A stretch of 64,000 nt of DNA from Eledone cirrhosa (Eukaryota): positions 57,474,001-57,538,000 of the forward strand of contig OZ024746.1 in assembly GCA_964016885.1 (NCBI GenBank). The letters are read 5' to 3'. The first letter of the stretch is position 1, and each line of letters begins with the position of its first letter. The position numbers and the translations under genes were made by a program. The notes under the pieces were generated by a model. That model ran no database searches and was not told the origin of the DNA. It worked only from the letters and a program-made list of their open reading frames with translations. This document shows positions 1,437-58,800 of the stretch, one piece after another.

Positions 1437-1589
1437 TTCATTATTTCTGAAGACGGCATATATATGTGTTGGTATGTATATTAAATTTGATAGTTTGTAT
1501 AATTTTGTATAATTTTGTACATAGATCTGTTGAATATGCATGCCAATTCTAACACATATATGTCCTAGAAACGATCGTTAAATAATGAA
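1437..1589 (+). ncRNA. Type I hammerhead ribozyme motif with very long stem II
   Basis: TTCATTATTT-CTGAAGA-[~114 nt stem II incl. ATATATGTGTT..AACACATATAT]-GAAA-CGATCG-TT-AAATAATGAA; perfect 10-bp stem I and palindromic stem III ACGATCGT. Confidence 0.8.
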
Positions 1590-1890
1590 CTTTTTTTGTT
1601 TAATATAAGGAACTGTTTCATTGTTTTATTCATTATTTTCTTAATATTTTATATATATATATATATATATATATATATATATATATATATATATATATAT
1701 ATATATATATATATATATATGTATATATATATATATATATATATATACACATATATATGTATGTATATATTATATATGTATATGCGTATGCATATATTAT
1801 CTATATGTATATATATATATATATATATATATATATATATATATATATATATATATATTATAATAAATGTAATCTGAGTTTTTCGAGTAT

Positions 1891-1992
1891 TAATAATTGT
1901 TTCTACTTTAGGCACAAGGCCAGCCATACCCAGTGTATTACTGGTACTTTATTTTATCGACCCCGTAAGGATGAAAGGCAACGTAAACCTCG
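1891..1992 (-). mobile_element. tRNA-derived octopus-type SINE, 3' fragment
   Basis: Matches the window consensus (reverse complement of GCCTTTCATCCTTACGGGGTCGATAAAATAAAGTACCAG...GGCCTTGTGCCTAAAGTAGAAACAATTA). Confidence 0.85.
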
Positions 1993-2002
1993 TCCGAGTA
2001 TA

Positions 2003-2338
2003 AATAATAACATTCGATTCGTTTGCAATAAGGCAAAAAGCCTCAATTTTTATAGCTATGTCAGTAGAATGAACCCTTCATTTTAGCTCTTGTGTTGGCA
2101 TGTGAACAGAACTGCAGACACTAATGTTTCTGAGTATTACGCTTCATCAGTACAGCTTAACTGTTCACCTGCCAAACTGACAGAGCTAGTGAAAATATAT
2201 GCTATTTTCTAAAATACACAGTGATTGATCGGCCTGATTTGCATATTAGCAGTCTGGCTGATCAGTAAGATCTGCATATTAGCAGATCCACTGATCAGCC
2301 AGATTTGGGTATCTGCAAACGAATCGAATGTTATTATT
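2003..2338 (-). mobile_element. ~335 bp non-autonomous HHR-bearing element bounded by 25-bp inverted repeats
   Basis: AATAATAACATTCGATTCGTTTGCA (2003-2027) vs its reverse complement (2314-2338); internal HHR, octamer at 2237-2244, hairpin at 2253-2303. Confidence 0.7.
2102..2168 (-). ncRNA. Type I hammerhead ribozyme
   Basis: Minus strand: GTGAACAG-tta-AGCTGTA-CTGATGA-AGCGTAATACTCA-GAAA-CATTAGTG-TC-TGCAGTT-CTGTTCAC; 7+8 bp stem I with a 3-nt bulge, GUC cleavage triplet. Confidence 0.85.
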
Positions 2339-2578
2339 ATTATTCGAAAAACTTAAAACATACACATATAAACAACAAACAAATATAAACACACACTAGT
2401 AAACTAAGATAGAATACATTAACCAATACACAGTCACCCAAACTAAAACACACATCAAACAAAACACTATACACACACGCAAACGCATGCGCAGAGAAGA
2501 CAAAAAATAAACAAATAAATAAATAAACAGACTAAATAAAGATGGCGTAAGCATACAACGGGAGGAAACATAATAGCA

Positions 2579-2618
2579 CCACTGACGATGCTGCAGATGT
2601 GCAACGAAAGAACTTTGA
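2579..2618 (+). ncRNA. Degenerate hammerhead motif in a PLE-like terminal repeat
   Basis: CTGACGA-T-GCTGCAGATGTGCAAC-GAAA-GAAC-TT-TGA; same GAAAG(T/A)ACTTTGA signature as 9219 and 45327; stem I is weak. Confidence 0.5.
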
Positions 2619-2830
2619 TAGACTATATATACGTGTTTGTGTCTATATCGTATCTGTATATTGGTCAGTCACTGGCAACATTGAGGACCGAATAAATTAA
2701 ATTAACCGATATAAAAGACACAGAAGCGAAAACCAACTAAACAGTGAGTGTGTTCTGTTATTAATACTGGCAATATTGTTACACAAATATGACCCTCCCC
2801 AAGTATAACTATATATATATATATATATAT

Positions 2831-3200
2831 ATCATCATCATCACCGTTTTACGTCCGTTCTTCCACGCTAGCATGGGTTAGACCGGTTGTCCTGTTGTGG
2901 GCAGTGTCCGGTCAGCTAAGCTTCTCTTGCTCATACGGGAACTGATTCTGGCTTGATTTCTACAGCTGGATGCCCTTCCTAACACCAACCTCATTCACAG
3001 TGAGTGATGAGTGCTTTTTTGCCGTGGCACCTCCACGACCACTTTGCAGTCCCTATCATCTCATTTCTACAGCTGAGCAACCTGGAGCAATGTGAAATAA
3101 AATGTCTTTCTCAAGGAAACAACGCATCACCCCGGTCTGAGATTGAACTCACAACCTTTCGATTGCAAACCCAATGCTCTAACCACAAAGCCATGTGCCT
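2831..3200 (-). mobile_element. Second SINE family (tRNA-like head, RTE-like tail ending (GAT)n)
   Basis: Minus strand has an A/B-box-like head (AGGCACATGGCTTTGTGGTTAGAGC...GAGTTCAATCTC) and the tail GGAAGGGCATCCAGC...GGACGTAAAACGGTGATGATGA. Confidence 0.6.
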
Positions 3201-56840: not shown

Positions 56841-57034
56841 TATATATATATATATATATATATATATATATATATATATATATATATATATATATATATA
56901 TATATAAATATATATGGATGTATATATAATGTATTTTGCAATACACTTTATGCTTAATTAAAAGCATTTTGAAGACCGTATGCTATTGCTTTAGAGTAGT
57001 GACAAATTCACTAACTTTAATCTCAGGAAACAGG

Positions 57035-57095
57035 GGAGATAAGCCGACAAGGCCTTGTTTCGCATTTATTGATGCTTATCAAGGCTAACTACTCC
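57035..57095 (-). ncRNA. Type I hammerhead, U3-A8 variant
   Basis: GGAG-tagtt-AGCC-TTGATAA-GCAT-CAATAA-ATGC-GAAA-CAAGGCCTTG-TC-GGCT-tat-CTCC. Confidence 0.85.
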
Positions 57096-57352
57096 GTCCT
57101 GTCTACCGAGATCACTGATTTTATATTCTTTTAGAATTCTAGTAAATAATCAGGAACTGATTATACAGAGCGGTTGTTGGTCAGGCAGAAATTAAAAATT
57201 AGAATTGGAGCTCTGAAATAGCAATATATATATGGATGTATATATAATGTATTTTGCAATATACTTTATTCTTAATTAAAAGCATTTTGAAGACCGTATG
57301 CTATTGTTTTAGAGTAGTGACAAATTCACTTAATTTAATCTCAGCAAACAGG

Positions 57353-57413
57353 GGAGATAAGCCGACAAGGCCTTGTTTCGCATTTATTGATGCTTATCAA
57401 GGCTAACTACTCC
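57353..57413 (-). ncRNA. Type I hammerhead, U3-A8 variant (second tandem copy)
   Basis: Identical motif to 57035-57095. Confidence 0.85.
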
Positions 57414-57527
57414 CTCCCTCCTAATTTTTAATTTCTGCCTGACCAACAACCTCTCAGTATAATCAGTTCCTGATTATTTACTAGAATTCTATAAGAATAT
57501 AACATCAGTGATCTCGGTAGACAGGAA

Positions 57528-57588
57528 GGAGTAGTTAGCCTTAATAAGCATCAATAAATGCGAAACAAGGCCTTGTCGGCTTATCTCC
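57528..57588 (+). ncRNA. Inverted copy of the family H hammerhead with core mutation (TTAATAA)
   Basis: Same stems; G5 changed to A. Confidence 0.7.
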
Positions 57589-58356
57589 CCTGTTTGCTGA
57601 GATTAAAGTAAGTGAATGTGTCACTACTCTAAAACAATAGCATACGGTCTTCAAAATGCTTTTAATTAAGCATAAAGTGTATTGCAAAATACATTATATA
57701 TACATCCATATATATATTGCTATTTCAGAGCTCCAATTTTAATATATATATATTGCTTCACCATTTTGTTTCTTTTCCCTCGCGTCCCCTTTATTTACGT
57801 GTCCCAACGACTTTTTTTAGCCGTTGCTCGCACCAACCGGAGGTATATGGTCTTTAAAGCGATGAAATGCCTATGAAGGTTGGAAGATCACTGATGAAGG
57901 ACAAACTTTTTTCATATGTAACCCATTTGCAACTCCGCAGCGCCCTTATTATCATATTTATATATATATATATATATATATATATATATATATATACATA
58001 CATACATATATAAAGATGGTGGTTTTACACTTAGAATGTTTCCAGCCAAGGCAAAAGCCTGGGTAAGGTTTGTTTCTGGAAGATCCTCAGTCACACATGT
58101 GCACCAGTCTCCCCTCCCCGCGTTACCTAGTTATCCATGGAAAAGGTAATGGCCGATGCCGCTTGGCACCAGTGACGACGCAACTGATTACAAAAGATGA
58201 GTAAACTCGAAAAGTGTGAAATAAAATCTTGTGGCTTACTGAAGGACACAACACATCACCCGGTCCGATATATATATATATATATATGTATATATATATA
58301 TATATATATATATATATATATATATATATATATATATATATATATATATATATATA

Positions 58357-58800
58357 AGTGAGAGGTATAGAGATTGTTTTAGCGAGAAGCTAACAGTATT
58401 CTATAACATATATGCGACTATAACGTCAAGATGGGAAAAGTAGTTAACGTAAGATTTAGGAAAAATAACTCAAACTCATCTCAAAAGAGAATCAGGATAC
58501 AAATTCATACACAGAATTTAGTGAAATCCAGGGAAAAATCAATAGACCTTTAACTCATGATATAATAAAGTTTAAAACACTTATCATTCAATTTGGAATA
58601 ACATCAAATGCTCTGTATAGTCTTAAAAGACTATTTCATGAAAACTTTCAGTGGTGATGGTCACGGTTGGATTTCAATCGTCAGCAGAGCTCAACAGAAA
58701 CCAAGGCTACCACAGTATTATAATCCGAAAAGGGAATTCTAAAACTGGCTAGTTCGCCATCATGCGTGATTATGAAAACGCACGAGGAAAAACGGGGCTA
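58357..58800 (-). mobile_element. Family G element with minimal-HHR-like motif (58610-58690)
   Basis: Minus strand: GCTCTG-CTGACGA-TT-GAAA-[~55 nt]-TA-CAGAGC. Confidence 0.7.

What the first reader, a model, noticed from the sequence alone, without database searches (positions are those of the whole stretch)
1437..58800. Very high density and diversity of hammerhead-ribozyme elements: a candidate cephalopod retrozyme/PLE-parasite system
Seen in sequence: about 30 type-I HHR motifs (intact, variant or partial) from about 15 different sequence contexts (1437, 2102, 2579, 3806, 6656, 9219, 14443, 16028/16143, 16917/20178, 21673, 25396, 29742, 44447/58610, 45327, 47304, 50454, 50946/51417/51639, 52089/56133/56750, 57035/57353/57528, plus partial cores in families B and C). 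Most have palindromic stem III and sit in non-coding 300-700 bp units flanked by (TA)n. Established knowledge: PLE pseudo-LTRs carry HHRs with palindromic helix III, and tandem HHR retrozymes in animals yield circular RNAs. Inference: a large set of non-autonomous self-cleaving elements exploiting PLE RT. I am not aware of such a system being characterised in octopods but cannot check this.
Basis: partly seen in the sequence, partly recalled or inferred. Interest (0 to 1): 0.92.

Follow-up and report, generated by a model that had tools for sequence, protein, structure and literature searches.

The report
Ribozyme repeats riding Penelope jumping genes
This stretch holds 28 intact or decayed copies of a predicted self-cutting RNA motif, 11 in the ends of ordinary Penelope-type jumping genes and 16 in short non-coding repeats that those genes' enzymes likely copy around the genome, in a few cases apparently together with the helper gene in one insertion.

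Summary
All 28 listed sites are type-I hammerheads (HHR): 15 look intact and 13 are decayed copies of families that are intact elsewhere. A random sample gives about one per 18 kb genome-wide (~165,000); the window is about 4-fold richer.

The reading needs splitting. Eleven sites are ordinary pseudo-LTR ribozymes of coding Penelope-like elements (PLEs; Hydra clade and Neptune-type). Sixteen sit in 318-717 bp non-coding tandem units, and one is unresolved. Most of these units carry the PLE insertion footprint: (TA)n targets and two head-to-head arms, one ending at a 'long' and one at a 'short' fixed site. Copies run unbroken across the cleavage site. This is the known class of non-LTR retrozymes (non-autonomous PLE derivatives); I found no cephalopod report.

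The extra result is six composite insertions whose arms come from two different families (3 of 63 Hydra-2 loci are paired with family D3). All six keep the long+short rule, which suggests two RNAs per insertion and names a helper. Cleavage and circular RNA are untested. This scan already noted the class, including the two-arm rule, on other DNA of this genome.

The parts
1437..1589 (+). Intact HHR with 114-nt stem II (family O), pLTR of coding Hydra-clade PLE 'Hydra-3'; 5'-truncated arm ~1021-1650 ending at the short end in (TA)n
   Evidence: ORF with RWR, DKT, CxCX5C in L320/L321; HHR on both sides of the ORF in L321
1960..2350 (-). Family M non-coding unit (~410 bp monomer, octamer-like motifs); HHR ~2102-2158 with decayed stem II
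2441..2760 (+). Family F2, decayed HHR at ~2579; pLTR of a Neptune-type PLE
   Evidence: this sequence starts 137-189 nt after a Neptune-type ORF hit in 9 loci
3479..4110 (+). Family D1 non-coding unit; HHR 3806-3848 with core and stem III mutations
6545..8385 (-). Family J1: 5'-truncated Hydra-type arm; endonuclease remnant 8359-7862, intact HHR 6654-6718
   Evidence: same arrangement in L032; link inferred from 2 loci
9162..9390 (+). Family F pLTR fragment, decayed HHR at ~9219 (Neptune-type PLE-F)
14290..14670 (.). Family J2: short head-to-head pair; HHR 14441-14507 (-), half copy from 14558 (+); coding status unresolved
   Evidence: no PLE ORF linked in 11 loci
15762..16530 (.). Family D head-to-head pair (short end left, long end right); intact HHRs 16027-16071 (-) and 16142-16186 (+)
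16877..20383 (.). Family I: two 1.7-kb 3'-UTR arms of coding Hydra-clade PLE 'Hydra-2' (short end left, long end right); intact HHRs 16922-16971 (-) and 20181-20230 (+)
   Evidence: (844-codon open frame between HHRs 4972 bp apart in L238)
21371..22300 (-). Family L: 1.3 copies of a 717-bp non-coding monomer; U3-A8 HHR at ~21673-21760, decayed here
25255..25480 (-). Family N: short non-coding unit with minimal HHR (A6 mutated here) and (CA)n tail
   Evidence: tandem in L332, L335
29735..29826 (+). Family E solo pLTR fragment with intact HHR 29740-29805 (Hydra-1)
44329..44755 (+). Family H (628-bp non-coding monomer), 5'-truncated; HHR ~44446-44530 with stem mismatches
44828..44890 (-).
   Evidence: whole motif seen in L365
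45167..46982 (.). Neptune-type PLE-F head-to-head pair with RT/GIY-YIG remnants; decayed HHR 45327-45369 (-) about 150 nt after the stop
   Evidence: (28 of 30 PLE-F loci show a same-strand HHR at that place)
46981..47640 (.). Family D2 (464-bp monomer, octamer + TATA-like box): partial inverted arm plus full copy; intact HHR 47304-47348 (+). Not the pLTR of the adjacent PLE-F
50110..50606 (.). Family K pair (476-bp non-coding monomer); HHR 50449-50522 (+) with a stem II deletion, half copy 50216-50355 (-)
50620..51960 (.). Family D array: two tandem copies (-) and one inverted (+); HHRs 50946-50988, 51417-51459 (intact) and 51639-51681 (U4 mutated)
51973..56838 (-). Full-length decayed Hydra-clade PLE 'Hydra-1' (family E): inverted pLTR (HHR 56747-56812 +), 5' pLTR (HHR ~56133 -), frameshifted ORF 55916-53768, 1.6-kb microsatellite-rich 3' UTR, 3' pLTR (HHR 52073-52132 -)
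56893..57715 (.). Family G (318-bp non-coding monomer, U3-A8 core): 1.6 copies (-) with short end and 1 copy (+) with 28-nt tail; HHRs 57039-57089, 57357-57407, 57534-57584
58350..58900 (-). Family H copy, intact HHR 58608-58692, (TA)n on both sides

Best explanation
The window is a pile of Penelope-type insertions in (TA)n microsatellites: 11 of its hammerhead motifs lie in the end repeats of protein-coding Penelope-like elements, and 16 lie in short non-coding tandem units that are likely copied in trans by the enzymes of those elements. SHOWN: the motifs and their covariation; ORF linkage of families O, E, I, F, F2 (J1 from 2 loci only); absence of an ORF and a tandem monomer in D, D1, D2/D3, G, H, K, L, M, N; head-to-head arms with 3' ends outward in (TA)n, one ending at a fixed long site and one at a fixed short site, in coding and non-coding families alike; tandem copies unbroken across the cleavage site. 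INFERRED: a tandem donor is transcribed (D and M units carry an octamer, D units also a TATA-like box); a PLE RT-endonuclease, probably as a dimer, nicks both strands of a (TA)n target; each nick primes reverse transcription at one of two internal start sites, on its own template RNA or on a separate pass of one RNA; the two 5'-truncated cDNAs are joined by short microhomology. Mixed-arm composites point to Hydra-2 as a helper of D2/D3. UNTESTED: that the HHRs cut, and whether the template is a ligated circle or an uncut multimer. The ribozyme is kept by selection on its fold but does not set the insertion ends.
For: Descriptor against shuffles. Covariation in the D superfamily: 6 of 14 pairs change on both sides, covariation score reached by 0 of 500 shuffles, slid controls at most 0.09 against 0.38, on only 8 related sequences. 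ORF linkage. Monomers of 318-717 bp, GC 0.33-0.38, longest ATG frame 22-70 codons (115 in microsatellite-rich D1); K and N tandem. Long+short rule: G 22 of 26 pairs with two canonical ends (33 pairs in all, 7 with one odd end), D3 9 of 9, D 6 of 6, Hydra-2 13 of 13 (one end read), plus 18 of 18 further Hydra-2 pairs picked on the long end. 179 same-family against 6 mixed head-to-head junctions. 5' breaks within 5 nt of the cleavage site: G 2 of 66 (2.3 expected), D3 0 of 18. The short-ended arm reaches further 5' than the long-ended arm in 3 of 13 Hydra-2 pairs, so it is not a fold-back copy of that arm. Copies within a locus are closer than between loci. Literature: two internal RT start sites define the tail, both strands are nicked and extended, a dimer is predicted (PMC11167929); tail at one end and (TA)n targeting by Hydra (PMC8557442).
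Against: No RNA evidence at all. No sequence shared between D3, D, G or H and the 3' ends of Hydra-1/Hydra-2 beyond TA-rich stretches, so the recognition signal is unknown and no parent PLE was found for any non-coding family. Family H is mostly one-armed with (TA)n on both sides, and N ends in (CA)n, so the two-arm model does not cover them. 4 of 26 G pairs break the long+short rule. No excess of A-to-G changes on the sense strand. Locus-private shared variants occur in the coding Hydra-2 too (4 of 20 multi-copy loci; G 7 of 32, D3 3 of 23), so they do not single out a circle. Genome searches return only the 40 best copies, so loci are biased to young, complete insertions. In one study only 1 of 9 predicted retrozyme dimers cleaved (10.64898/2026.07.22.740005).
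Confidence: 0.85

Rival explanations
1. Classical retrozyme cycle: tandem transcripts self-cleave to monomers, are ligated to circles, and a PLE reverse transcriptase runs round the circle to write tandem arms. This refines the best explanation rather than excluding it.
For: Arrays are unbroken across the cleavage site. Monomers fold strongly as circles (z -5 to -15 for D, D1, D2, D3, G, M). Stems covary. Some loci share private variants among all copies, on both arms. Circles are shown in coral, mussel and axolotl (PMC7229834).
Against: An uncut multimeric transcript gives the same DNA. Cleavage-dead HHR mutants insert normally for an anole PLE (PMC11167929). H and L fold weakly (z -1.3, -2.7). 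The same within-locus sharing is seen in a 5-kb coding PLE.
Confidence: 0.5
2. All units are only 5'-truncated ends (pLTRs) of coding PLEs, locally duplicated; there is no independent non-coding amplification.
For: True for 11 of 28 window motifs. Solo and opposed HHR pairs are described as truncated PLEs (PMC4209133). Hydra 3' UTRs here are 1.2-2.3 kb, long enough to hide an ORF from 1.5-kb flanks, as happened at first with families I and O.
Against: D, D3, G, H, K, L, M and N close on themselves: the 5' end of one monomer abuts the 3' end of the previous one at fixed periods of 318-717 bp in unlinked loci. No PLE ORF was seen continuous with them in the loci read.
Confidence: 0.1
3. The mixed-family composites are not co-insertions but deletions that fused two neighbouring, independent two-armed insertions in one (TA)n hotspot.
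For: Independent insertions often sit side by side: within 600 bp of Hydra-2 lie D3 in 5, P in 5 and D in 4 of 63 loci (the D3 count includes the 3 chimeras). L206 has a D3 pair about 120 bp from a Hydra-2 pair. The window's own PLE-F/D2 junction at 46981 looks like such a deletion. All 3 D3|Hydra-2 cases came from the first 33 loci and none from the next 30.
Against: 6 of 6 scorable composites (L207, L243, L265, L306, L365, L281) have one long and one short outer end, which a fusion would give with probability 1/64. Junctions show 2-5 nt overlap where measured and no TA remnant, as in same-family junctions. All three direct head-to-head partners of Hydra-2 are D2/D3, which made up 2 of about 100 library hits in the random sample.
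Confidence: 0.35
4. The non-coding units are satellite or DNA-transposon (MITE-like foldback) repeats spread without an RNA step, and the HHR is a passenger.
For: The insertions are inverted repeats and short tandems; no editing scars were found.
Against: Variable 5' truncation with fixed 3' ends, unequal arm lengths and the same long/short asymmetry as coding PLEs; dispersal over all large contigs; compensatory changes in HHR stems.
Confidence: 0.05

Closest known systems
Metazoan non-LTR retrozymes (Cervera and de la Pena 2020, PMC7229834, passages and parts 2-3 of 6 read; Li, Clavereau and Pollet 2026, 10.64898/2026.07.22.740005, parts 1-3 of 5 read)
   Same: Non-coding, low-GC tandem monomers of a few hundred bp, each with a type-I HHR; many families per genome (coral over 6000 motifs in 16 families, mussel about 5000, axolotl 126,247); co-occurrence with PLEs, proposed as non-autonomous PLE derivatives.
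   Different: Here arrays are short (mostly 1-6 copies in the loci read), dispersed and two-armed with PLE tails in (TA)n. Two families use a U3-A8 core. The estimated count (~165,000 motifs of all kinds in 3.0 Gb, other descriptor) is higher per base than any figure in the parts read. No parent pLTR was found by sequence, unlike Xenopus (24 of 57 families). Cleavage and circles are not shown here.
Hydra-clade PLEs (Craig et al. 2021, PMC8557442; passages and the Hydra section read)
   Same: C-terminal GIY-YIG, RW[K/R], DKT, CxCX5C linker, canonical HHR, (TA)n targeting, partial tandems with an inverted 5'-truncated copy and a one-sided tail (families E, I, O, probably J1).
   Different: Units of about 5 kb with 1.2-2.3 kb microsatellite-rich 3' UTRs (described as generally under 3 kb); tails of 90-140 nt (30-40 described); one family has a 114-nt stem II.
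[quoted passage not shown]
   Same: Thousands of solo motifs per genome, opposed pairs 100-700 bp apart, palindromic helix III region, the U3-A8 core variant.
   Different: That paper ascribes solo motifs to truncated PLEs; here more than half of the window's motifs belong to self-contained non-coding monomers.
Anole Poseidon PAc in vitro mechanism (Frangieh et al. 2024, PMC11167929; parts 1-2 of 4 read)
   Same: Two internal RT start sites bounding the tail, AT-rich target, both strands nicked and extended, HHR cleavage not needed.
   Different: In vitro the two strands showed no difference in start site; here two-armed genomic insertions almost always use one site per arm, and arms can come from different RNAs.

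Membership tests
Non-LTR retrozyme | Type-I hammerhead in each repeat unit | tested here: met
Non-LTR retrozyme | Tandem monomers of a few hundred bp (150-450; 51-972 in the 2026 survey) | tested here: met
   D 472, D2/D3 464-469, G 318, K 476, M ~410, N ~345, H 628, L 717
Non-LTR retrozyme | No coding capacity, GC below 50% | tested here: met
   for D, D1, D2, D3, G, H, L, M; for K and N only the absence of linked PLE hits was tested
Non-LTR retrozyme | Target-site duplication longer than 4 bp when present | tested here: inconclusive
   insertions lie in (TA)n, which hides duplications
Non-LTR retrozyme | No LTR, primer-binding site or polypurine tract | not tested
   no terminal LTR pair seen in the maps; PBS and PPT were not searched
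Non-LTR retrozyme | Highly self-paired monomer | tested here: inconclusive
   circular fold z of -5 or lower in 6 of 8 units, -1.3 (H) and -2.7 (L)
Non-LTR retrozyme | Self-cleavage in vitro | not testable with these tools
   needs a transcription assay
Non-LTR retrozyme | Expressed as monomer-length linear and circular RNA | not testable with these tools
   needs RNA from the species
EN+ Penelope-like element (families E, I, O, F) | Single ORF with RT and C-terminal GIY-YIG | tested here: met
   open frames of 715, 844, 673 (partial) and 868 codons; GIY-YIG Pfam match E 2e-4, just under the curated cut-off
EN+ Penelope-like element (families E, I, O, F) | pLTRs carrying an HHR, partial tandems, inverted 5'-truncated copy, one-sided tail | tested here: met
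Hydra clade (E, I, O) | RWK-type motif, DKT, CxCX5C linker, (TA)n targets | tested here: met
   read by eye from the frames against the definition (RWK in E, RWR in I and O)
Hydra clade (E, I, O) | Generally short, under 3 kb (descriptive, not diagnostic) | tested here: not met
   unit 4972 bp for I, about 4.7 kb for E and 5.6 kb for O
Hydra clade (E, I, O) | Placement in an RT phylogeny with reference clades | not tested
   no named reference set was fetched
Neptune/Nematis clade (F, F2) | CX2-5CxxC linker before the GIY-YIG domain | tested here: met
   CX4CxxC in PLE-F; the two clades were not told apart
Non-autonomous PLE derivative | Same insertion signature as a coding PLE | tested here: met
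   end rule counted for D, D3, G and P; opposed arms seen for D1, K, L, M; not met for most H and N copies
Non-autonomous PLE derivative | Sequence shared with the pLTR of a parent PLE | tested here: inconclusive
   none with Hydra-1 or Hydra-2 beyond TA-rich stretches; most PLE families of the genome were not sampled
Rfam Hammerhead_1 / HH9 / HH10 | Score at or above the gathering threshold | tested here: not met
   0 hits; best HH9 37.7 bits against 52

The most novel reading that the evidence does not exclude
A two-armed Penelope-type insertion is written from two separately loaded RNAs, one per strand nick, each started at a different fixed site. A non-coding ribozyme unit and its coding helper can therefore be written as the two arms of one insertion. 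Mixed-arm composites would then be a fossil record that pairs each retrozyme family with its helper (D2/D3 with Hydra-2) without shared sequence, in a genome with about 10^5 hammerheads from some 45 or more families.
Probability: 0.55. Interest if true: 0.7.

Novelty: new member of a known kind. Interest (0 to 1): 0.47.

Why it matters
Which enzyme moves animal retrozymes has been argued from co-occurrence and pLTR similarity, and how PLEs make head-to-head insertions with a one-sided tail is still open. This genome holds young (98-99% identical) non-coding families, young coding Hydra elements with long open frames, mapped start sites and mixed composites. That turns both questions into direct tests with named RNA-protein pairs. 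It also adds a mollusc lineage with possibly the densest hammerhead load among the cases in the papers read, and shows that Rfam thresholds miss all of it. The class itself is known, and much of the window is ordinary PLE debris.

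Tried and rejected
Rfam: no gathering-level hit; the low-score list is dominated by microsatellite matches to miRNA models.

Expression: no RNA holder listed among 4 runs; contigs of three runs laid on family G say nothing on strand, ends or circles.

A genome search with D2 (47180-47480) returned nothing, not even the window itself, and is uninformative; the related D3 gave 1595 candidates.

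Rejected ideas: 47304 as the pLTR of the GIY-YIG remnant beside it (it belongs to D2; PLE-F has its own HHR). The D3 copy in L243 as pLTR of a neighbouring Hydra ORF (independent). 1437 as a half-core only (it has a long stem II). Family I as non-coding (ORF found with wider flanks). Pile-up of 5' ends at the cleavage site (none). Pairing of partner RNAs through matching stem III palindromes (D3 and Hydra-2 stems differ; by eye).

Left out of the 6 composites: L184 (H next to Hydra-1; ends not scorable), L188 (14-nt gap, short hits), L333 (TA run between) and the window's convergent junction at 46981.

Paper searches for a cephalopod report found none: 'hammerhead ribozyme + octopus', 'cephalopod + Penelope + non-autonomous' (28), 'ribozyme + cephalopod + genome' (54), 'Penelope + octopus genome + transposable elements' (90), 'Penelope-like + non-autonomous + hammerhead + tandem + mollusc' (97). 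The 2026 Octopus vulgaris repeat paper has no occurrence of hammerhead or ribozyme in its main text (term search). No search was aimed specifically at mixed-arm PLE insertions; (PLE mechanism) and the passages read did not show them. No supplements were read; those of PMC8557442, PMC4209133 and PMC7229834, and Repbase or Dfam, may list cephalopod families. The snRNA-type promoter of newt satellite 2 is recalled; one search did not return its source.

Full report
OBSERVATION. The window (G000:C6:57474001-57538000, in a 3.0-Gb animal genome) is AT-rich and full of (TA)n. A strict type-I hammerhead descriptor found 10 motifs and none in 12 shuffles. Allowing the U3-A8 core described for Schistosoma PLEs (PMC4209133) gave 14 against 0-1. 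With one core mismatch the count is 23 against 4-13, so that level needs family support. Site 1437 is an intact motif with a 114-nt stem II, and the remaining 13 listed sites align to intact family members elsewhere. All 28 listed sites therefore stand. Nine of the 15 intact motifs have a perfectly palindromic stem III. Rfam finds none at gathering score. Eight HHRs of the D superfamily show 6 of 14 pairs changed on both sides, above all shuffles for the covariation score and far above slid controls; the sequences are related, so this is support, not a probability.

DENSITY. In 63 evenly spread 10-kb stretches (not drawn by a random generator) the same descriptor found 38 motifs; shuffles gave 2, 4 and 4. 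That is about one per 18 kb, or about 165,000 genome-wide (bootstrap 98,000-232,000). It is a lower bound for motifs with long stems and leaves out decayed copies. The 479 hits in the loci held at that point fell into 52 clusters, of which roughly six look like chance. The window is about 4-fold above the mean, but its 14 motifs come from 10 insertions, its flanks hold 3 in 40 kb, and it is one of over 1300 noted windows of this genome.

CODING FAMILIES (11 sites). PLE-F: 28 of 30 loci carrying its GIY-YIG domain show a same-strand HHR about 150 nt after the ORF end, the family of 45327 and 9219; open frames reach 859-995 codons, with a CX4CxxC linker. F2 (2579) follows a related ORF in 9 loci. 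Family E (29742, 52089, 56133, 56750) frames a decayed full-length element at 51973-56838; genome copies have a 715-codon frame with the HHR upstream, inverted and 1.6-2.3 kb downstream. With 1.5-kb flanks only 3 of 30 loci showed that HHR, as the long 3' UTR predicts. Family I (16917, 20178) is the end of a young 4972-bp element with an 844-codon frame, and family O (1437) of a third one. E, I and O carry the Hydra-clade motifs. J1 (6656) lies 1.15 kb behind a Hydra-type endonuclease remnant here and 1.4 kb in L032.

NON-CODING FAMILIES (16 sites). D (472 bp), D1, D2/D3 (464-469), G (318), H (628), K (476), L (717), M (about 410) and N (about 345) recur as head-to-tail monomers at unlinked loci, without linked PLE coding sequence. 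First-look candidate counts, which are not copy numbers, were D 1010, G 1458, H 2538, L 1934, M 2414, D3 1595, N 4242, K 2868. G and L use the U3-A8 core. D, D1, D2, D3 and M carry an exact octamer (background 0.07 per kb), followed in the D group by a TATA-like box upstream of the HHR; a promoter role is inference. J2 (14443; 1952 candidates) is unresolved.

INSERTION ANATOMY. Coding and non-coding families share one structure: two arms head to head, 3' ends outward in (TA)n, 5' ends broken at variable places and joined with a few bases of overlap. There were 179 same-family head-to-head junctions in the non-redundant loci. One arm ends at a fixed long site and the other at a fixed short site, 26-28 nt apart in G, 56 in D, about 70 in D3, 90 in Hydra-2: G 22 of 26, D3 9 of 9, D 6 of 6, Hydra-2 13 of 13 and then 18 of 18, P 16 of 16 classified pairs, redundancy not removed. 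This is the one-sided PLE tail (PMC8557442, PMC3846280 passages), which Frangieh et al. traced to two internal RT start sites (PMC11167929). Neither insertion ends nor 5' breaks fall at the cleavage site, so a linear cut monomer is not the template; a circle or an uncut multimer both fit. Either arm can be the longer one, so the short-ended arm is not a fold-back copy of the other. H (mostly one-armed) and N ((CA)n tail) differ and probably use other PLE lineages.

MIXED COMPOSITES. In 3 of 63 Hydra-2 loci (L207, L243, L265) the opposite arm is a D2/D3 unit, joined with 2-5 nt overlap and no TA remnant; each time Hydra-2 has the long end and D3 the short end. All three came from the first 33 loci and none from the next 30. 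Three more composites (L306 P|D3, L365 P with Hydra-2, L281 D3 with an unplaced family X) also have one long and one short outer end. Six of six has probability 1/64 if they were fusions of neighbours by deletion, and D3 is rare in the random sample. Against this, independent insertions do crowd together (L206), the window's own junction at 46981 looks like a deletion, and D3 and Hydra-2 share no sequence. I put co-insertion at about 55-65%.

MECHANISM. Shown: motifs, covariation, ORF linkage or its absence, tandem closure, arm geometry. Inferred: transcription of tandem donors, binding by a probably dimeric PLE protein, two nicks in (TA)n, two reverse transcriptions from the two start sites, microhomology joining. 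Untested: cleavage, circularisation, expression.

COMPARISON AND VERDICT. The non-coding units meet the testable features of non-LTR retrozymes (PMC7229834), whose PLE origin was argued in a 2026 preprint (10.64898/2026.07.22.740005); the rest are ordinary Hydra and Neptune-type PLE ends (PMC8557442, PMC4209133). Five paper searches found no cephalopod report, and a 2026 Octopus vulgaris repeat annotation lists active Penelope-like families without mentioning ribozymes in its main text; supplements and repeat databases were not seen. The host is probably an octopod, on weak evidence. Earlier notes of this scan describe the same class and the two-arm rule on other DNA of this genome; I reached that reading before the look-up, and a word search for mixed arms returned nothing. 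Verdict: a new member of a known kind, with one testable mechanistic addition. Interest 0.47.

Noticed in passing
window 44828-44890; L190, L365, L015: Family P: a very abundant HHR-bearing element (37 BLAST hits in 630 kb of random sequence), mostly as 50-190 bp head-to-head pairs broken inside the ribozyme; U3-A8 core and 17-nt stem III where complete. Coding status unknown.
   Followed up: partly
   Followed up: no
window 8456-8727 and 49803-50112: Another short head-to-head repeat family in (TA)n with a possible half hammerhead and long stem III.
   Followed up: no
window 1883-1992, 5766-5994, 8943-9073, 10035-10229 and about 15 more: The commonest repeat of the window (about 190 bp; 84 hits in 390 kb of random sequence) looks like a tRNA-derived SINE and has no hammerhead hit.
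   Followed up: partly
window 31047-30511 (-): Old Hydra-type endonuclease remnant with no HHR found within 2.6 kb downstream.
   Followed up: partly
window 52132-53768; L185, L238, L321: Hydra-clade elements here have 1.2-2.3 kb 3' UTRs made largely of (TG)n/(TA)n and AT-rich repeats; two families also have a long Asn/Gly-rich insert between RT thumb and endonuclease.
   Followed up: partly
window 51494-51609 and 47200-47260; family M: An exact octamer is kept in D, D1, D2, D3 and M upstream of the HHR, with a TATA-like box in the D group; possible snRNA-type internal promoter.
   Followed up: partly
window 4056-4101, 4323-4375, 22473-22552, 15564-15690: 3'-end fragments of families D/D1 and H without the ribozyme, as expected from 5'-truncated reverse transcription.
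   Followed up: partly
L323 1765-4488 (+): A 908-codon open frame of a further PLE lineage, in tandem, nested inside a Hydra-3 insertion.
   Followed up: no
L257: AT-rich satellite whose units give weak U3-A8 descriptor hits; probably chance.
   Followed up: no
window 23161-23943 and 61337-62143: Open frames of 107-159 codons without a Pfam match; possibly fragments of other retroelements.
   Followed up: no
family G loci: Five of 66 5' breakpoints fall on one position (194 of the monomer), 13 nt after the cleavage site; unexplained.
   Followed up: no
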